A stretch of DNA of 64,000 bases. Source: a virus. The notes under the pieces are model-generated. The model was not told where the DNA came from and ran no database searches. It worked only from the letters and a program-made list of their open reading frames with translations. Numbering within the stretch: the first letter of the stretch is position 1; each line of letters opens with the position of its first letter. Below, one piece after another: positions 56,892 through 64,000 of the stretch. The translations under genes were made by a program, and so were the position numbers. The stretch lies in IMG/VR virus record IMGVR_UViG_3300017917_004266, positions 28,990 to 92,989 of that record; one strand, given 5' to 3'.

Positions 56892-57425
56892 TTACTCCTT
56901 TTTAAGTTCATCTAATTTAATAGACACCTCTGGTTTAATTTCGTTCATTTTTTTTTCTTTTAATCTTTGCACATATATCCAATCATCTGCAAAAAATCCT
57001 TCTTTAATTATTATACCATAAGTTTTAGTAACATATAATTTTATTTTTTCTTGATATTCATTTTTATTTCCAGCAGAAGCAATTGGCATTGTTCCCCAGT
57101 TTGGGTCATACATCCATAATGAATTAGCATATTCAAATATTGTTACGGCATGCCCAATTATCATATCTGGATCATCTTTATAAGAATATGTAAAACAATA
57201 TATAGTATTCCAAACTTCTGTATGTGTTTTAAGATAAAAATTACATTTAGAAGCCCAAATTAAAGAATCAACAAAACAAGAATTGGGTATATTAGTTACA
57301 GATGTATAATATTTAAAATTAAATCCCCATTTAAAGAAAAACCACCAAGATATTATTATCGCAACTCCAACTAATATTAGTTTTGATCTACCAAACCATT
57401 TTTTAATTTTCTTTTTGATTTTCAA
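56892..57425 (-). CDS. Membrane-anchored papain/transglutaminase-like protein
   Basis: N-terminal TM; NSC..GHAV..WMYDP Cys-His-Asp order. Confidence 0.5.
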   Translation of the reverse strand: MKIKKKIKKWFGRSKLILVGVAIIISWWFFFKWGFNFKYYTSVTNIPNSCFVDSLIWASKCNFYLKTHTEVWNTIYCFTYSYKDDPDMIIGHAVTIFEYANSLWMYDPNWGTMPIASAGNKNEYQEKIKLYVTKTYGIIIKEGFFADDWIYVQRLKEKKMNEIKPEVSIKLDELKKE

Positions 57426-58479
57426 TCTTTTTAAGTTGAATTTCTGTTTTTCCTAAAAGGTCACCTTTTTTCCAAGTTGATCCATCATTTGTACATTCAT
57501 AAACTACTCCATAACCCATATCTTCTGGAAGTTCTCTAATTTCTTTTACTGTGCCTTCGCTGCCGTAATGTTTGCACATGGCATTAATGTTTTTAACTTT
57601 ATCTCCTATATCAAACATACAATGATGATCCATTGGTTGACATATCATTTCTTGAGCTTGAGCTTCTTCTTTATTAAACATTACATAATTGTGGATTGTA
57701 ATAATATAATCTTCTGCGAGCGCAGCCATTTGTTGTAAGAATGGCTCTGTTAGATTTTCTTTAACTATTGGATCTTCTAGCTTATTCAAAATATTTTGCG
57801 CATGAACTTGAATTGAAGTAATTGAACCAACAATCATTTCATAAAAATCTTCTTTATAATCTTGTAGTTCTTCCTCTGGGCTTTCAATTTCTTCTACGTT
57901 ATTTAATTCTGCAGTCATTAATTCGTTTTGATCAAATTCTGTTTCGCCATCCCATTCATATTCTTCGTTTAAATAATCATTAGCTTGTGCTTTTTTAATG
58001 GCTTCTTCTGTTGGACGATCTGGAGAACCTGGCCTTGCTGGACGATAATTCTTTCCCATTCTTTTCTTTTTTTGTTGAATGTTATACCATAAACCCTTAT
58101 TTTTAGCTTGAACATCTACTTCTAGTGTTATTTCTTCTTCTAAATTTTGAACTGATCCACAATTTGGTTTACCACATGATCCTGTGATTTTACTAACTGG
58201 TTTAGCACTCCACATTTTACAACTCCAATAATTTGCTTTCCATTTTGGACCAGGATTACTACAGCCATGTCTAGATCTATATGCTTTTCTTCTTTCTGGA
58301 TTATCTCTTTTAATTGACATATTTGGATCACCAAAAGTAACTTTTACAATATTACCTTTATCATTTTTAACATAAACACCAAATTTCTTTTTGCTTCCTT
58401 TTGGAAGTCTAAATGGTTTATTTAATGGTGCTTTACCTTTTTTGACTGCTTTTAATTGTTCAGAAAAATCTATTTCCAT
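57403..58479 (-). CDS. Modular phage protein (possible internal head protein)
   Basis: Basic module KVTFGDPNM..RSRHGC..YWSC, GLWYNI..RPTEEA module, acidic linker, C-terminal SH3-like GDKVKNIN..HYGSEG. Confidence 0.55.
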   Translation of the reverse strand: MEIDFSEQLKAVKKGKAPLNKPFRLPKGSKKKFGVYVKNDKGNIVKVTFGDPNMSIKRDNPERRKAYRSRHGCSNPGPKWKANYWSCKMWSAKPVSKITGSCGKPNCGSVQNLEEEITLEVDVQAKNKGLWYNIQQKKKRMGKNYRPARPGSPDRPTEEAIKKAQANDYLNEEYEWDGETEFDQNELMTAELNNVEEIESPEEELQDYKEDFYEMIVGSITSIQVHAQNILNKLEDPIVKENLTEPFLQQMAALAEDYIITIHNYVMFNKEEAQAQEMICQPMDHHCMFDIGDKVKNINAMCKHYGSEGTVKEIRELPEDMGYGVVYECTNDGSTWKKGDLLGKTEIQLKKIENQKEN

Positions 58480-58504: not shown

Positions 58505-58533
58505 TTGACAAAATACTAATAAAAACTTAATAT
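58505..58533 (+). promoter_or_regulatory. Sigma70-like promoter upstream of structured RNA
   Basis: TTGACA-17-TAATAT. Confidence 0.65.
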
Positions 58534-58540
58534 AGTATTA

Positions 58541-58845
58541 AATAGCTTCCTAATAAAGCAGTTTTGTGGATAGTCAAATAAATCCTCTAATATCTTAGCC
58601 TTGCGATGGCAACGTCTATCAGGCTGACGACCATTAAAAATTCACTTGTTTAAAAGCTTGTGATGAAATGTAGGTGTAAGGGATGGCAAAATGTAAAGGA
58701 ATAACCTACCGCGTTCCTATAAATGCCATAGCCATCTTCAGAAGAAATGCTGAAGATAAAGGAGTCAAAAGAAAAGTTGGCGAAGATATTAAATAAAATC
58801 TTATAAAATATATTTTTATGAGGTAAAGCCTGTTAGGATATCAAA
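58541..58845 (+). ncRNA. Candidate ~300-nt structured ncRNA of unknown family
   Basis: ORF-free GC-enriched island with nested stems and a pseudoknot (see findings). Confidence 0.65.
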
Positions 58846-58972
58846 GAAAAGTTATTATTTCATACACTTGATTAAATTTTTTTTATAAATGTTAATAAAA
58901 TTTTATTTTTTTCTTTTTTATATCTTAAATAAGATGTAACATAAGTATCTCGTAAATACGAAAGGTTTTATA

Positions 58973-61225
58973 ATGATACATGTAAAAAAGCGTAATGGTA
59001 GTACTGAAAAATTTAATATAGAAAAAATTCATAGAATAATAAATTGGGCAGTAAAAGATTTAAGCAATGTAAGTCTAACAGATATAGAAATAAACGCAAA
59101 AATTAATATTCATGATGGAGTTACTACAAAAGAGATCCATAGATTATTAGTTGAATCTGCTGCTAATTTAATATCTGTTGAAAAACCAAATTATCAATTT
59201 GTTGCTAGTCGTTTATTAAATTATCAATTAAGAAAAGACGTTTGGAAGGGGAAACATGCACCAAGACTTTCTGAATTTATTAATCAGGGTATTAAAAATA
59301 AAATTTATGATCCTATTATTTTAGAAAAATATTCAGAAGATGAGATTAATAAAATGGGAGAATTTATTGATCACGAAAGAGATTATAATTTTACATATGC
59401 TGGAATCAAACAATTATGTGATAAATATTTAATTAAAAATAGAACTAATGGTAATATTTTTGAAACTCCACAGTTTGCATATATTTTAATTGCTGCTTAT
59501 GGATTTATATTTTATCCAAAAGAAACAAGACTAAATTATGTAAGAAAATTTTACGATGCTATTAGTAAGCATAAAATTAATTTACCAACACCAGTAATGG
59601 CTGGAGTAAGAACTCCAAGCAAAAATTATGCAAGTTGCTGTTTAATAGGAGTTGATGATACTCGCGAAAGTATTACCGCTAGTGCTACAGCAGTTAGTAT
59701 GGCTACTGCTAATAGATGTGGTATTGGAATTGATGTGTCAAAAATTAGAGCTATTGGGTCTCCAATTAAAAATGGAGAAGTTGTACATACAGGATTAATT
59801 CCATTTCTTAAAATCTATGAAAGCAGTGTCAAAGCTTGGCAACAAAATGGACTTCGTGGTGGAAGTGCTACTTGCAATATTCAATGGTGGCATTATGAAA
59901 TAGAAGATATTGTCGTATTAAAAAATAATGCTGGCACAGATGATAATAGAGTTCGTAAACTTGATTATACTGTTGGTATGAGTAAATTATTTTATGACAG
60001 AGTATTAAAAGATGAAGAGATTACTTTATTTAATACAGCAGAGATTCCAGAATTATATGAGGCTTGGGGTACGAAAGATTTTGATAAAATCTATAAAGAA
60101 TGTGAAACTAAGAAATTAAAAATTAAAAAGAAGGTTTCTGCTCGTAAATTATTTTCTTTGATCATCAAAGAGAGGGTCGAAACTGGTAGAATTTATATTC
60201 TTAACGTAGATCATGCTAATAATCATGGAGCTTGGTTAGATAAAGTCACCATGAGTAATCTTTGCACCGAAGTTATTCATCCAACGATTCCTTTAAATGA
60301 TTATCATGATAAAAATGGTGAAATTGGAATGTGCATTCTTTCAGCAGTAAATATGCTAGAAATTAAAAACTGGCAAGATCTTGAAAAGACTTGTGATCTT
60401 ATCGTAAGATTTCTTGATGAGATCATTGAAATTCAAGATTACTTTAATATTGCTGCTGAAAATTTTGCAAAGAAACGCAGAAGTCTAGGAATAGGAATTA
60501 CTAATCTCGCTGCATTTTTAGCTAAAAATGAATTAAAATATACTTCTGATAAAACACTTGTTGTATTAGATGAATGGATGGAGCATTTTCAATATTATCT
60601 TTTAAAATCTAGTCTTGAGTTAGCTAAAGAAAAAGGAAAATGTGAAAAATTTGATAGAACAAAATATTCAAAAGGAATTTTATCTATTGACACATATAAA
60701 GATAAAGTAGATGAATTATGCAAAAGAAAATTATTTCTTGATTGGGAAAACCTAAGAAAAGAAATAAAAGAATTTGGATTAAGACACTCAACATTATCCT
60801 CTTGTATGCCTTGCGAAAGTAGTTCTGTAATTCAATCTTCGACTAATGGAGTAGAACCAATTAGAAGCTTAATAACTTATAAAATGAGTAAAATGGGTAA
60901 ATTACCAGTATTAGTTCCTGGAGTTGGTAAGTATGATGATAATTATGAGTTAGCTTATGATTTTAAAGATAATTCTGGTTTATTAAAAATTAATGCAATT
61001 ATTCAAAAATATATTGATATGGCTATATCAACTAATGTGTACTATAACTATTCTCATTATGAAAATAATGTTTTACCAGATGCAAAAGTAATGAAAGAAA
61101 TTATGTATGCTTATTCTTTGGGTTTAATTAGTTTATATTACAATAATACAGATGATGGAGATAAAGAACAATTAATGAATCAAAAAGAAGATCGCGATTG
61201 TTCTTCTGGAGCATGTAAATTATAA
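58973..61225 (+). CDS. nrdA: Class Ia ribonucleotide reductase alpha subunit with ATP cone
   Basis: VKKRNG, PTPVMAG, SCC, SNLCTE, MPCESSS, STNGVEP, C-terminal CSSGAC. Confidence 0.97.
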   Translation: MIHVKKRNGSTEKFNIEKIHRIINWAVKDLSNVSLTDIEINAKINIHDGVTTKEIHRLLVESAANLISVEKPNYQFVASRLLNYQLRKDVWKGKHAPRLSEFINQGIKNKIYDPIILEKYSEDEINKMGEFIDHERDYNFTYAGIKQLCDKYLIKNRTNGNIFETPQFAYILIAAYGFIFYPKETRLNYVRKFYDAISKHKINLPTPVMAGVRTPSKNYASCCLIGVDDTRESITASATAVSMATANRCGIGIDVSKIRAIGSPIKNGEVVHTGLIPFLKIYESSVKAWQQNGLRGGSATCNIQWWHYEIEDIVVLKNNAGTDDNRVRKLDYTVGMSKLFYDRVLKDEEITLFNTAEIPELYEAWGTKDFDKIYKECETKKLKIKKKVSARKLFSLIIKERVETGRIYILNVDHANNHGAWLDKVTMSNLCTEVIHPTIPLNDYHDKNGEIGMCILSAVNMLEIKNWQDLEKTCDLIVRFLDEIIEIQDYFNIAAENFAKKRRSLGIGITNLAAFLAKNELKYTSDKTLVVLDEWMEHFQYYLLKSSLELAKEKGKCEKFDRTKYSKGILSIDTYKDKVDELCKRKLFLDWENLRKEIKEFGLRHSTLSSCMPCESSSVIQSSTNGVEPIRSLITYKMSKMGKLPVLVPGVGKYDDNYELAYDFKDNSGLLKINAIIQKYIDMAISTNVYYNYSHYENNVLPDAKVMKEIMYAYSLGLISLYYNNTDDGDKEQLMNQKEDRDCSSGACKL

Positions 61226-61227
61226 TT

Positions 61228-62292
61228 ATGAAAAGTGTTTTAAATTTAAAAAATATAGATCATACCAAACAACCATTATTTTTTGGTGAAGATCTTAATT
61301 TACAAAGATATGATCGTTTTAAATATCCTATTTTTTTTGAATTATTTAAAAAACAAGAAGAATTTTTCTGGTGGCCTCATGAAATAGCCTTAAATAAAGA
61401 TCGTAGCGATTATAAGGAATTAGCTGGTCAAGAAAGATTTGTTTTTGACACTAATTTAAAATTTCAAACTCTTGGTGATAGTATGCTATCAAGAAGTATT
61501 CATTCATTAAAAGATTACGTAAGCAATCCAGAACTTGAGATTTGCATGAATACTTGGCAAAGATTTGAGGGAATCCATAGTTATTCTTATTCATATTTAC
61601 TTAATAATGTTCATCCAGACGCTAGTAAATTCTTTGATAGTATAATGGAAGATAAAGAAATAGTATCTCGCGCAGAATTAATTAGGAATAATTTTGATAA
61701 AATCCTTGGTGATGACGATAAGAAGGATTTGAAACAGAAAATATTTGATTGTATACTTTCTGTAAATGTTATGGAAGGTCTTGTATTTTATGTTTCATTT
61801 GCCTGTTCTTTCTATTTTGGATATCGTGGAAAAATGGAAGGTAATGCTAAAATTATTAAGTTTATTCAAAGAGATGAAGCTTTGCATTTTGCCACAACTC
61901 AAAATTTACTTAAAATTCTAAAAGAAGAAGAAAAGGAAGGCTTTACATCTATAGCTAAAAAAAGCGAAGATAAAGTATATGCATTCTACGAACAAGCCGC
62001 TAAAAATGAAATTGAATGGGCTGAGTATCTATTTAGTAAAGGATCTTTACTAGGCTTAAATGCTGAAGTTTTAGGTGGTTATTCAAAATGGCTCTGCGAC
62101 GCTCGTCTACGATCATTAGGGTATAAGAAAATATTTAACCAAAAGGATAACCCTATTGCTGGATGGTTAGATAGCTACCTTGACAGTAGCAAAGTTCAAG
62201 TCGCCCCGCAAGAAACTGAGATTTCTACATATAAAATTGGAGCAAGAAAAACTGATATATCTGATGATGATTTTGGTGATTTTAAACTATAA
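61228..62292 (+). CDS. nrdB: Ribonucleotide reductase beta subunit
   Basis: FWWPHE, EGIHSYSY, EGLVFYVSF, RDEALH, VAPQETE. Confidence 0.97.
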   Translation: MKSVLNLKNIDHTKQPLFFGEDLNLQRYDRFKYPIFFELFKKQEEFFWWPHEIALNKDRSDYKELAGQERFVFDTNLKFQTLGDSMLSRSIHSLKDYVSNPELEICMNTWQRFEGIHSYSYSYLLNNVHPDASKFFDSIMEDKEIVSRAELIRNNFDKILGDDDKKDLKQKIFDCILSVNVMEGLVFYVSFACSFYFGYRGKMEGNAKIIKFIQRDEALHFATTQNLLKILKEEEKEGFTSIAKKSEDKVYAFYEQAAKNEIEWAEYLFSKGSLLGLNAEVLGGYSKWLCDARLRSLGYKKIFNQKDNPIAGWLDSYLDSSKVQVAPQETEISTYKIGARKTDISDDDFGDFKL

Positions 62293-62306
62293 TATCTAAT
62301 ATTTAA

Positions 62307-62313
62307 AGTGTAA
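62307..62313 (+). promoter_or_regulatory. AGTGTAA motif
   Basis: 8 nt before ATG at 62322. Confidence 0.6.
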
Positions 62314-62321
62314 ATATCTAT

Positions 62322-62654
62322 ATGAATTTAGATATAACTTTATTATTTAATATAGTTTTAGGGGCATTATCTTTTCTAGGTGGATGGCTTTTTACTAGAG
62401 TATTTTCTATATCTGATCGTCAAGAAAAACTTATTAAAGATTTAAATGATAAAACATTCAGCGATTTCATATCTTTAAGAAAAGAAGTAGAATTAGAAAG
62501 CCGCAAACACCAACAAGAAATAGCTGATTTAGCTTTAAAGGTTAGTACAACTTATGTAACAAAAGAGTCTTTTGAAGCATATTTTGATAGAATAGAAGCT
62601 AAACTTGATCGTAATTTTGAAATTATACAAAATTATTTAATGAATAAAAAATAA
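62322..62654 (+). CDS. Single-TM coiled-coil protein (holin-like?)
   Basis: N-terminal TM; YVTKE..RIEAKLD; AGTGTAA 8 nt upstream. Confidence 0.5.
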   Translation: MNLDITLLFNIVLGALSFLGGWLFTRVFSISDRQEKLIKDLNDKTFSDFISLRKEVELESRKHQQEIADLALKVSTTYVTKESFEAYFDRIEAKLDRNFEIIQNYLMNKK

Positions 62655-62675
62655 AAATTAACTGTAATAGTTAAT

Positions 62676-63191
62676 GTGATACTTTCAGATAGAGATATAG
62701 ATTTTTTTGCTAAAAAATTAAATTTATCACCAGAAAAAACATTTATCTTATTAGAAGATCCAGATTGTTTACCAGAAATTTTAAATAAAATTTGTGAAGA
62801 TGAAATAAATGGTATAGTTGATATTAGCTTTCCAGTATTTGCTGAATTAACTATTATAAAATATAGTAAAGATTTAAAATATTCTTTTGAAGAAAAAGAA
62901 TATATTTCAGAAATTGTAGGATCAAAATTCTATGATTTAATAGAAACTCCGTTACAAAATAAATATTTTTTTACATTAAATCAAGATGAGGACACAGCAA
63001 AATCTATACTTGTTTTTTTAGGATTTTTTTATAAAAGTTTAGAAAAACTTAGAAGATCTTATCCGTCAGAAAATATATACTATAATATAGCTAAAAATGG
63101 TTTTGAAAATTCAAACAAAGAAGAAATATCTTATCATTTAAAAGATTGGATTAAATTATTAAGAAGAATACAAAACGAAGTCTGGTTTTAA
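62676..63191 (+). CDS. Hypothetical protein
   Basis: 171 aa, GTG start after ACTGTAA variant motif. Confidence 0.55.
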   Translation: MILSDRDIDFFAKKLNLSPEKTFILLEDPDCLPEILNKICEDEINGIVDISFPVFAELTIIKYSKDLKYSFEEKEYISEIVGSKFYDLIETPLQNKYFFTLNQDEDTAKSILVFLGFFYKSLEKLRRSYPSENIYYNIAKNGFENSNKEEISYHLKDWIKLLRRIQNEVWF

Positions 63192-63765: not shown

Positions 63766-63877
63766 ATATAATATGATACACTTAAAAAAATATTTTATCG
63801 ATTTTTTTTAAAAATTTCACATATTTAATTTATCTATGTAATTAAAATTAGTTCTTTATAAAATAAAAAAGTCCATT

Positions 63878-64000
63878 TTGGGTGAATTCGGTGGAAGTCT
63901 TAAAGAGATTATACCGAGCCAAGACAACTGGGAAAGATAGGTTGTAAGGTGTAACGACTAGGCGATTGAGTCCCAACAATAATATTGCCCACGAGCGCCC
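63878..64000 (+). ncRNA. Group I intron catalytic core (IA-like), truncated by window end
   Basis: P3 GGGTG/CGCCC; P element AATTCGGTGGAA; Q element ATACCGAGCC (P4 TCGGT/ACCGA); P6a ACAAC/GTTGT; R element GTGTAACGACTA; P7.1 GGCGAT/ATTGCC. Confidence 0.75.

What the first reader, a model, noticed from the sequence alone, without database searches (positions are those of the whole stretch)
58505..58845. Unannotated ~300-nt highly structured RNA with pseudoknot upstream of nrdA
Seen: a GC-enriched ORF-free island directly after TTGACA-17-TAATAT. Terminal stem TCCTAATA(58548-55)/TGTTAGGA(58831-38); long-range stem TAATATCTT(58588-96)/AAGATATTA(58783-91); hairpins CGTC/GACG, TCAC/GTGA, ATCTTCAG(58734-41)/CTGAAGAT(58750-57) and CTTATAAAA/TTTTATGAG; ATGGCA(58683-88)/TGCCAT(58724-29) enclosing AGGAA/TTCCT, whose loop ACCTAC(58704-09) can pair with upstream GTAGGT(58670-75) as a pseudoknot. 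G.U pairs favour the + strand. I do not recognise tRNA, tmRNA, RNase P or intron signatures. An AGTGTAT on the - strand at 58862-68 could give an antisense transcript. Inference: a novel ncRNA, ribozyme or cis-regulator of nrdAB.
Basis: partly seen in the sequence, partly recalled or inferred. Interest (0 to 1): 0.8.

Follow-up and report, generated by a model that had tools for sequence, protein, structure and literature searches.

The report
New knotted phage RNA, twin motifs
The gene-free stretch before nrdA is a separately transcribed gene for a roughly 314-base, triple-pseudoknotted non-coding RNA of uncultured lake phages; it matches no catalogued RNA family, is not an nrdA leader, and carries two exposed 12-13-base tracts that always mutate together, a testable clue to a function that is still unknown.

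Summary

- **Structure:** in 62 distinct homologues from four diverged clades, 94.8% of cells pair, against 30-43% in slid controls. 57 of 80 pairs change on both sides.
- **Gene:** it runs about 58540-58853 (+), behind a conserved TTGACA-17-TAATAT promoter, with no intrinsic terminator.
- **Family:** no Rfam family matches at E up to 10 in three clades, and ARAGORN finds no tRNA or tmRNA. A core-pattern scan of 185,579 prokaryote genomes gave only false positives, while viral and lake metagenome contigs gave about 127 distinct copies.
- **Not an nrdAB leader:** in two clades the nrdAB block is inverted relative to the RNA. There the RNA lies back to back with a phage tmRNA gene, and nrdA keeps its own upstream elements everywhere.
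- **New feature:** two single-stranded tracts, RGA-N(1-2)-YYA(A)WWGRRAANN at 58761-58777 and 58836-58852, are identical in every copy across at least 9 haplotypes, including a shared insertion. No complementary partner was found in the RNA or in the phage contigs searched.
- **Best reading:** a trans-acting RNA scaffold that presents twin arms to one shared partner. The mechanism is inferred, not shown.

This scan had already found the same family on other phage DNA.

The parts
58505..58533 (+). Sigma-70-type promoter of the RNA gene: TTGACA, 17-nt spacer, TAATAT
   Evidence: scores it 10 of 12. The equivalent TTGACA-17-TATTAT lies before the homologue in L139. TTGACA and a -10 element are also conserved upstream of clade D copies.
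58540..58853 (+). The RNA gene, about 314 nt. It starts at the near-invariant 5' ACAUA (AAAUA in this window) and ends at the last conserved base of the second twin motif.
   Evidence: Conservation starts and stops at these limits in alignments A1, A2 and A3. Model R1 matches 58538-58856 at 236.8 bits. No intrinsic terminator follows.
58545..58559 (+). S1 hairpin: GCUU (58545-48) pairs with AAGC (58556-59). The loop is CCUAAUA.
   Evidence: All 4 pairs change on both sides and 99.6% of cells pair (helix 1). Clade D has CCGC/GCGG, UCGC/GCGA or GUAUUA/UAAUAC instead.
58566..58587 (+). S2 hairpin: GGAU (58568-71) pairs with AUCC (58582-85). In clades A and B the loop holds GUCAAA, a partial third copy of the motif.
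   Evidence: The helix is GUUGA/UCAAC in clade B and AUUGA/UCAAU in L096. It is 8 bp in clade C and 10 bp in clade D. helix 3: all 5 pairs covary, although the alignment is poor here.
58588..58600 (+). S3, 5' strand (UAAUAUCUU, A, GCC). With 58779-58791 it forms the long-range helix that closes the core.
   Evidence: helices 4 and 5: all 9 pairs change on both sides, 97-100% paired. Clade B has AUCAAUCC/GGAUUGAU, clade C UAGUAUAUAGUCC/GGGACUAUAUACUA and clade D UUAUUAGUUC/GAACUAAUAG.
58606..58634 (+). S4 (AUGG 58606-09 with CCAU 58631-34) encloses S5 (CGUC 58613-16 with GACG 58626-29). The S5 loop carries AGGCU 58621-25, which is the 5' strand of pseudoknot PK-B.
   Evidence: helices 6-8. S4 is 100% paired and 3 of 4 pairs covary (AUAG/CUAU, UGGG/CCCA, CAGG/CCUG). 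S5 switches between C-G and U-A.
58642..58663 (+). S6 hairpin: UCAC (58642-45) pairs with GUGA (58660-63), around a small inner hairpin.
   Evidence: helix 9: 4 of 5 pairs covary. Variants are CCUUC/GAAGG, CCUUU/AAAGG and CCACU/AGUGG.
58670..58729 (+). H-type pseudoknot domain. PK-C is GUAGGU 58670-75 with ACCUAC 58704-09. S7 is AUGGCA 58683-88 with UGCCAU 58724-29. S8 is GGAAU 58698-702 with GUUCC 58713-17.
   Evidence: helices 11-13. PK-C is 95% paired and 2 of 6 pairs covary. In S7, 5 of 7 pairs covary (AUCGCA/UGCGAU, CUAACA/UGUUAG). In S8, 4 of 5 covary (GGUCG/UGACC, GGAUG/CAUCC, GACA/UGUC).
58735..58756 (+). S9 hairpin: UCUUCAG pairs with CUGAAGA.
   Evidence: helix 14: all 8 pairs covary. 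In clade D it is a short GGCC-GAAA-GGCU hairpin.
58761..58777 (+). Twin motif, copy 1: GGAGUCAAAAGAAAAGU. It is single-stranded and lies between S9 and the 3' strand of S3.
   Evidence: The core is identical to copy 2 in all of about 127 distinct sequences, across at least 9 haplotypes.
58779..58791 (+). S3, 3' strand (GGC, G, AAGAUAUUA).
   Evidence: See the S3 5' strand (helices 4 and 5).
58799..58823 (+). S10 hairpin: UCUUAUAAAA pairs with UUUUAUGAGG.
   Evidence: helix 15: 6 of 9 pairs covary. Clade D has CUUUGUAU/AUACAGGG.
58827..58837 (+). 3' strands of two long-range pseudoknots. AGCCU 58827-31 pairs with the S5 loop (PK-B).
   Evidence: PK-B is 99.4% paired and 3 of 5 pairs covary (helix 8). 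Its variants are GGGCU/AGCCC, AGACU/AGUCU, GGAGCU/AGCUCC, GAAGCU/AGCUUC, AGAGCU/AGCUCU and AAAGCU/AGCUUU. PK-A is 89% paired, 1 of 4 pairs covaries, and it is absent in subclades D2 and D3.
58836..58852 (+). Twin motif, copy 2: GGAUAUCAAAGAAAAGU, at the 3' end of the conserved RNA.
   Evidence: Conservation stops 1-2 nt after it.
58861..58972 (+). The upstream control region of nrdA itself, not part of the RNA. It holds ATACAC 58862-67, TGTTAATAA 58890-98, a T-rich TTTTTTTCTTTTTT 58906-19 and TGTAACAT 58935-42.
   Evidence: the same four elements precede nrdA in clades A, B, C and D and in L010, whether or not the RNA is adjacent.

Best explanation
**Shown:**
- Window 58540-58853 (+) is a stand-alone gene for a roughly 314-nt non-coding RNA. 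It has its own conserved sigma-70-type promoter, which suggests early transcription by host RNA polymerase.
- The RNA folds into a compact core of about ten helices, locked by two well-supported long-range pseudoknots (PK-B and PK-C) and a third, weaker one (PK-A).
- The family is confined to a group of uncultured, AT-rich phages whose contigs reach about 172 kb. They come from freshwater metagenomes, and their NrdA is only 53% identical to that of the nearest cultured phage, pelagimyophage HTVC008M.
- The gene moves as an independent cassette, so it acts in trans and is not an nrdAB leader.

**Inferred:** the fold serves as a rigid scaffold that displays two single-stranded, purine-rich arms of the same sequence, each preceded by RGA. 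In every lineage the two arms carry the same substitutions and even the same 1-nt insertion. The simplest reading is that both arms recognise one and the same partner by base pairing. That partner would be a pyrimidine-rich RNA or DNA that itself varies between lineages: about ACUUUUCUUUGA for clades A-C and ACUUCCCAAUGA for clade D. The RNA could bind it bivalently, as a sponge, clamp or antisense regulator, or alternately.

The partner has not been identified. It is not in the RNA itself, not in the neighbouring tmRNA, and not detectably in the phage contigs searched. It may be host-encoded.
For: **Real RNA and fold:**
- Covariation statistics.
- Strand-specific G.U pairs, 285 cells against 40 A.C cells.
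- A fourth clade with only 54-84 bits to the model keeps every helix through compensatory changes.

**Own transcription unit:**
- Promoter conserved in the relatives examined.
- No terminator.

**Independence from nrdAB:**
- The nrdAB cassette is inverted relative to the RNA, and other contexts occur.
- nrdA has its own conserved upstream elements in all clades.

**No known family:**
- Rfam gathering scan of the whole window, plus E up to 10 scans on clades A, B and D.
- ARAGORN finds nothing here.
- No reverse transcriptase in four genomes, one of them 100% complete.

**Distribution:** 85 viral and 103 metagenome stretches match the core pattern. In the prokaryote genome collection there were only 2 matches, and both failed the covariance model.

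**Twin arms:** about 127 distinct sequences and at least 9 core haplotypes, with no discordance inside the core. The haplotypes are:
- UCAAAGAAAAGU
- UUAAAGAAAAGU
- UCAUUGGGAAGU
- ..GGGAAAU
- ..GGGAAAAU (shared insertion)
- ..GGGAAGA
- UCACUGGGAAGU
- ..UUGGAAAGU
- ..GGGAAUU

The R of the preceding RGA also tends to match between the two copies.
Against: - No partner was found. There is no consistent complementary site inside the RNA.
- There is no excess of complementary 12-mers in G000 or in eight relatives' records. There is none in the phage tmRNA.
- Transcription, RNA ends and single-strandedness of the arms are predictions only.
- Concerted change could instead reflect a shared protein, two identical processing sites, or homogenisation of short direct repeats by template switching.
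- Some close relatives (NrdA 78-92% identical) show no copy in 106-157 kb of contig, so the RNA is not essential to the whole group.
- In clades A, B, C and D1 part of each arm region can also pair with the S1 loop (PK-A). That would explain some, but not all, of the concerted positions.
Confidence: 0.4

Rival explanations
1. RNP scaffold. The two identical arms are tandem binding sites for two copies, or a dimer, of one sequence-specific RNA-binding protein from the phage or the host. The RNA would sequester that protein or assemble with it.
For: Each arm is bipartite: an RGA, then 1-2 nt, then YYA(A)WWGRRAANN. Two sites about 75 nt apart on a rigid fold would suit a dimer. A small 69-83-aa ORF lies next to the RNA in clades B and C.
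Against: Positions that a protein does not contact should drift independently. Instead, single substitutions at five different positions and a 1-nt insertion are always shared. No protein gene is a constant neighbour. The 69-aa ORF lies 7-10 kb away in clade A and was not found in the window. GGA is not conserved in copy 2 of clade D, which argues against CsrA. The clade D arms are not ARN repeats, which argues against the Hfq distal face (established knowledge of those motifs).
Confidence: 0.2
2. Self-processing or processed RNA. The two identical tracts are two copies of one cleavage or ligation site, recognised by the RNA's own catalytic core or by one endonuclease. Copy 2 would set the mature 3' end. 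Copy 1 would release or rearrange the 3' module of about 75 nt.
For: There is no terminator, and conservation stops 1-2 nt after copy 2. The fold is intricate, pseudoknotted and has invariant junction nucleotides, as in ribozymes.
Against: No match to any self-cleaving ribozyme, intron or RNase P model in Rfam. No guide sequence complementary to the tracts was found within the RNA. Cutting at copy 1 would sever the covarying S3 helix and two pseudoknots from the core.
Confidence: 0.12
3. Primer or origin RNA that works by realignment. The purine-rich 3' tract of the transcript hybridises to template DNA at either identical copy, forming a stable purine-RNA:pyrimidine-DNA hybrid. This would prime replication or allow template jumping, in the manner of ColE1 RNA II, retroviral polypurine tracts, or the repeat-flanked templates of telomerase and DRT2 RNAs.
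For: Identity of the two copies is what realignment requires, and it would need no third partner. The tracts are polypurine. The gene has a strong promoter and no terminator. GC skew changes sign at the locus in this window.
Against: No reverse transcriptase (PF00078) in four genomes, one of them complete. In clades B and C the RNA is a lone opposite-strand gene with no strand switch around it. The segment between the copies is itself tightly base-paired. Clade D arms are only partly purine.
Confidence: 0.1
4. One reading: a cis-acting leader or riboswitch that controls nrdAB.
For: In this window and in clades A and D it lies 120-140 nt upstream of nrdA, on the same strand, with no terminator between.
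Against: In clades B and C nrdAB is inverted relative to the RNA, and elsewhere nrdAB is absent within 5 kb. nrdA keeps its own upstream elements without the RNA. No cobalamin or other riboswitch model matches.
Confidence: 0.03

Closest known systems
ROOL (RF03087) and GOLLD (RF01998): large 'ornate' non-coding RNAs of phages and prophages
   Same: These are also large, highly structured stand-alone RNAs of unknown function. They are carried by phages and often lie next to tRNA or tmRNA genes. In clades B and C the RNA here sits back to back with the phage tmRNA.
   Different: Neither Rfam model matches at E up to 10. This RNA is 290-325 nt, against roughly 580-800 nt for those families (from memory). 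Its helices and pseudoknots are different. The twin concerted motifs are not a described feature of ROOL or GOLLD, as far as I know.
tmRNA (SsrA)
   Same: It is also an RNA of about 300-400 nt, rich in pseudoknots. The same phages encode one, and in two clades it lies about 290 nt away on the opposite strand.
   Different: There is no tRNA-like domain, no tag reading frame and no ARAGORN call. There is no sequence similarity to the phage tmRNA and no complementarity of the twin arms to it.
RNAs with repeat-flanked templates: telomerase RNA and the DRT2 defence reverse-transcriptase ncRNA. Also the two identical polypurine tracts of retroviruses (established knowledge, not tested here).
   Same: In those systems two short identical tracts must stay identical because a polymerase or primer realigns between them. 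AAAAGAAAAG is also a classic polypurine-tract sequence.
   Different: No reverse transcriptase gene was found in these phages. The segment between the tracts is a conserved, base-paired part of the fold and not an obvious open template.
ColE1 RNA II (plasmid primer RNA)
   Same: It is a promoter-driven, terminator-less, multi-helix RNA whose fold positions a purine-rich segment (from memory).
   Different: There is no sequence or model match. No origin evidence exists. The context of the RNA varies between clades.

Membership tests
Any Rfam 15 family (4227 models) | A covariance-model score at or above the family's gathering threshold | tested here: not met
   There were no hits in the whole window at gathering thresholds. 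At E up to 10 on clades A, D and B the only hits were unrelated chance matches of 13-19 bits.
tmRNA / tRNA | A tRNA-like acceptor and T-arm, and for tmRNA a tag reading frame | tested here: not met
   ARAGORN finds none in the window, yet it does find the true phage tmRNA in relatives. There is no similarity between the two RNAs.
Bacterial RNase P RNA | The conserved regions CR-I to CR-V, with the P4 pseudoknot in the canonical order | tested here: not met
   No RNase P model matches at E up to 10. The only resemblance is a short look-alike of CR-I: GAGG(U/G)AAAG followed by a pseudoknot strand, at 58820-31. It lies near the 3' end, not in the 5' part.
Cobalamin or other riboswitch acting as an nrdAB leader | A match to an aptamer model, and a constant position upstream of the regulated gene | tested here: not met
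   No riboswitch model matches. The position relative to nrdAB is not constant.
Group I / group II intron | A match to the catalytic core model, and insertion within a gene | tested here: not met
   There is no Intron_gpI or group II match at this locus. The same search does detect a group I intron fragment at 63815-64000, so the tool can see them in this window.
ROOL / GOLLD | A match to RF03087 or RF01998 | tested here: not met
   Searches give no match.
RT-associated ncRNA (retron msr-msd, DRT2-type template RNA) | A reverse transcriptase gene in the same element | tested here: not met
   PF00078 is absent from G000 and three relatives, including a 100%-complete 172-kb genome. The search's own control genomes were positive.
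CRISPR mini-array or repeat mimic | Repeats of 28-37 nt flanking a variable spacer of 30-40 nt | tested here: not met
   The identical tracts are 12-20 nt. The 58-75 nt between them is conserved and base-paired. No CRISPR repeat family matches at this locus.
Trans-acting base-pairing sRNA or sponge with duplicated seed (what it may work like) | An identified complementary target whose changes track the seed | tested here: inconclusive
   The seeds change in concert. No complementary site stood out in the RNA, the tmRNA or the phage records. Host genomes are unknown.

The most novel reading that the evidence does not exclude
A new class of phage RNA machine. Its rigid triple-pseudoknot core holds two identical guide-like arms that pair with one lineage-specific pyrimidine-rich target, either host or phage nucleic acid. 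It could act as a programmable bivalent clamp or sponge, or as a realignment (template-jump or priming) device that needs both copies to match. Either way it would be a base-pairing-programmed function with no described counterpart in phages.
Probability: 0.3. Interest if true: 0.85.

Novelty: categorically new. Interest (0 to 1): 0.72.

Why it matters
Large RNAs with several pseudoknots and this much covariation have almost always turned out to be ribozymes, RNP cores or elaborate regulators, so each new class is rare.

This one is carried by an abundant but uncultured group of lake phages. A strong host-type promoter drives it, which points to a role early in host takeover.

The twin arms give an unusually direct experimental handle. 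Their sequence predicts the sequence of the unknown partner, lineage by lineage. The function can therefore be pursued by pull-down, by compensatory mutagenesis and by matching arm haplotypes to host genomes. If the arms are guides, the RNA would be a naturally reprogrammable recognition module.

Tried and rejected
- **Rfam:** a whole-window scan at gathering thresholds and three relaxed scans on different clades gave nothing consistent.
- **Cultured phages:** blastn of the locus against 50,697 phage records found no match. The nearest cultured NrdA is only 53% identical, from Pelagibacter phage HTVC008M.
- **RNAalifold on plain MAFFT alignments:** it recovered only part of the fold, because the variable helices were misaligned. 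I solved this with a hand-built structure and a covariance model.
- **Raw column-pair covariation listing:** too noisy, because of the clade structure. I replaced it with a helix-level scan.
- **Partner inside the RNA:** a duplex scan found no site conserved across clades. UUUUG of J1/2 with CAAAA was considered. The L096 G-to-A change proved instead to be compensated within S2.
- **S5 loop partner:** the alternative AGCC at 58730-33 was rejected, because clade D lacks it while the 3' partner covaries strictly.
- **Partner in the phage genomes:** complementary 12-mers are no more common than in the control.
- **Partner in the phage tmRNA:** none found.
- **tRNA anticodon-loop pairing:** it fits the clade D arms (UUGGGAA against a Gly-CCC type loop, from memory). 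It fails for clades A-C, because position 37 of the loop would have to be a pyrimidine.
- **T-rich tract upstream of nrdA:** UUUUCUUUU is complementary to AAAAGAAAA. The tract is unchanged in clade D, whose arms differ, so I treat this as chance.
- **Constant protein neighbour:** none exists.
- **Reverse transcriptase:** none found.
- **Prokaryote genomes:** the core pattern gave two hits, and both failed the model.
- **Relatives without the RNA:** four related phage records were searched and none gave a hit, including two of 106 and 157 kb.
Full report
**What the window is.** The window is the last 64 kb of a 93-kb IMG/VR viral contig estimated at 61% complete. Around the finding lie these genes:
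- two unknown minus-strand genes (56892-57425 and 57403-58479);
- the ORF-free stretch;
- nrdA (58973-61225) and nrdB (61228-62292), confirmed by Pfam.

The nearest cultured NrdA is 53% identical, from pelagimyophage HTVC008M. The phage therefore belongs to an uncultured group.

**Checking the observation.**
- The + strand folds better than shuffles (z = -2.9) and better than the - strand (z = -1.6).
- Rfam gives nothing in the whole window at gathering thresholds. At E up to 10 on the locus it gives only two chance matches. ARAGORN finds no tRNA or tmRNA.

**Homologues.**
- An NrdA-based search of viral contigs returned 80 loci.
- blastn and nhmmer found the RNA in about 30 of them. Only four had it upstream of nrdA. 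In the rest it lay about 2 kb downstream of nrdB on the opposite strand.
- A scan with the two conserved 17-mers added 60 loci, giving 50 distinct full-length sequences in three clades, A, B and C.
- I derived a consensus structure by hand from clade comparisons and a helix-level covariation scan, and built covariance model R1 from it.
- R1 then found a fourth, much more diverged clade, D. It scores 54-84 bits, has 43-47% GC, and sits upstream of nrdA as in this window. Further D subclades followed.
- A more general core pattern found 85 viral and 103 metagenome stretches. It found only two hits among 185,579 prokaryote species genomes, and both failed the model. In all there are about 127 distinct real sequences.

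**The fold** (window coordinates):
- S1: 58545-48 with 58556-59.
- S2: 58568-71 with 58582-85.
- S3, long-range: 58588-600 with 58779-91. It encloses S4, S5, S6, S7, S8 and S9.
  - S4: 58606-09 with 58631-34.
  - S5: 58613-16 with 58626-29.
  - S6: 58642-45 with 58660-63.
  - S7: 58683-88 with 58724-29.
  - S8: 58698-702 with 58713-17.
  - S9: 58735-41 with 58750-56.
- S10: 58799-808 with 58814-23.
- Three pseudoknots:
  - PK-B: the S5 loop 58621-25 with 58827-31.

On 62 distinct sequences, 94.8% of cells are standard pairs, against 30-43% when partners are slid by 1-3 columns. 57 of 80 pairs change on both sides. The covariation score is 0.417 against 0.05-0.08, and no shuffle out of 500 reaches any measure.

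PK-B is especially convincing. Its variants are AGGCU/AGCCU, GGGCU/AGCCC, AGACU/AGUCU, GGAGCU/AGCUCC, GAAGCU/AGCUUC, AGAGCU/AGCUCU and AAAGCU/AGCUUU. PK-A is the weakest element and is lost in subclades whose S1 loop is UGAAAG or AUUAAA.

G.U cells outnumber A.C cells seven to one, so the + strand is the functional strand. The alignment was fitted to the model, which inflates the pairing percentages somewhat. The clade D compensations are also visible in a plain MAFFT alignment.

**Transcription unit.**
- TTGACA-17-TAATAT at 58505-33 has counterparts before every homologue I inspected.
- The near-invariant ACAUA begins 7 nt after the -10 element.
- Conservation ends 1-2 nt after the second twin motif.
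- No intrinsic terminator follows here or in L139. How the 3' end forms is unknown.

**It is not an nrdAB leader.**
- In the window the order is: 358-aa gene (-), RNA (+), nrdA, nrdB, 110-aa gene and 171-aa gene (all +).
- In clades B and C the nrdA-nrdB-110-171 block is inverted relative to the RNA. The RNA then converges on the end of the 171-aa gene. A 69-83-aa ORF plus a phage tmRNA gene sit divergently just upstream of the RNA.
- In other relatives no nrdAB lies within 5 kb.
- In clades A and D the tmRNA lies 6-10 kb away. None lies in the 93 kb of this contig.
- nrdA keeps the same four upstream elements in every clade, with or without the RNA: RTACAC, TGTTAATAA, a T-rich tract and TGTAAYAT.
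- Four related phage records gave no hit for the RNA, among them 106 and 157 kb of contig.

**The twin motifs.** Two single-stranded tracts, at 58761-77 and 58836-52, share a core that is identical within every sequence but differs between lineages:

| Lineage | Copy 1 | Copy 2 |
|---|---|---|
| A, B | UCAAAAGAAAAGU | UCAAAGAAAAGU |
| C, L130, L096 | UU... | UU... |
| L121 (within C) | reverted to UC | reverted to UC |
| D1 | UCAAUUGGGAAGU | UCAUUGGGAAGU |
| L069 | GGAAAG | GGAAAG |
| L068 | ACUGGG | ACUGGG |
| L074 | GGGAAUU | GGGAAUU |
| D2 | GGGAAAU | GGGAAAU |
| D3 | GGGAAAAU | GGGAAAAU |
| L003 | GGGAAGA | GGGAAGA |

- The D3 change is a shared 1-nt insertion.
- There was no discordance inside the core in about 127 sequences.
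- The purine in the preceding RGA also tends to match between the copies.
- Independent drift, or recognition by a protein, would not produce identical changes at many different positions. That argues for a shared base-pairing partner or for a mechanism that requires the two copies to match.
- I looked for a partner and found none. I searched the RNA itself, the phage tmRNA and nine phage records, where counts were no higher than in a reversed-pattern control. No reverse transcriptase is encoded.

**Reading.**
- Shown: a stand-alone, promoter-driven, triple-pseudoknotted RNA family restricted to this phage group and matching no catalogued family.
- Inferred, at about 40%: a trans-acting scaffold that presents two identical arms to one nucleic-acid partner, possibly host-encoded.
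- Rivals:
  - a protein-binding RNP scaffold;
  - two identical processing sites of a ribozyme or nuclease;
  - a primer or realignment RNA.
- The cis-regulator reading is essentially excluded by synteny.

**Earlier notes of this scan.** After I had reached the structure, the clades and the twin motifs, I looked up earlier notes. The same family had already been reported from other phage contigs, with the same main conclusions. One of those notes gave me the tmRNA-neighbour lead, which I then verified myself. PMC10690425 lists over ten thousand candidate structured RNAs from IMG/VR. Its text does not mention this locus, and I could not search its motif list, so prior listing as an uncharacterised candidate cannot be excluded.

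Noticed in passing
window 63815-64000 (+), cut by the contig end: The 5' part of a group I catalytic intron: Rfam RF00028, 34.6 bits, E = 2.6e-07, model positions 1-155 of 253. It runs off the end of the contig and no obvious upstream exon was examined.
   Followed up: partly
L139:5965-6352 (+), L119:10838-11256, L090:4415-4802, L096:6799-7186, L095:11653-12039, L153:5074-5461: These phages encode their own tmRNA of 386-419 nt. The predicted tags are AKTAKYKGHISARVSLVEETASVA and close variants. In clades B and C the gene lies about 290 nt from the new RNA on the opposite strand.
   Followed up: partly
L139:5726-5932 (+) and homologues in 67 loci: A conserved 69-83-aa ORF (MEIIKNKARW..., two conserved Cys-containing stretches) lies between the RNA promoter and the tmRNA gene in clades B and C. 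In clade A it sits next to the tmRNA, 7-10 kb from the RNA. No homologue was found in this window. Its function is unknown.
   Followed up: partly
window 58861-58972, and the 125 nt upstream of nrdA in L002-L059 and L010: A conserved four-part upstream region of nrdA is present in all clades: RTACAC, TGTTAATAA, TTTTTTCTTTT and TGTAAYAT. It is probably a phage-specific promoter or operator set. It was not analysed further.
   Followed up: partly
window 58973-63191 compared with L139:341-5345: The whole nrdA-nrdB-110aa-171aa block is inverted between clades of otherwise syntenic phages.
   Followed up: partly
window 58573-58581, the S2 loop: In clades A and B the S2 loop carries GUCAAA(U/A)AA, a partial third copy of the start of the twin motif. 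In clade D the S2 loop carries ACUCC-AAAAA, which resembles the clade D motif start ACUCAA.
   Followed up: no
G004:5467-5478 and G005:52209-52220 (records of L003 and L009): A further same-sense copy, TCATTGGAAAGT (one mismatch to the twin motif), lies 12-19 kb downstream of the RNA in two clade D phages. It may be chance or may lie in a conserved coding sequence.
   Followed up: no
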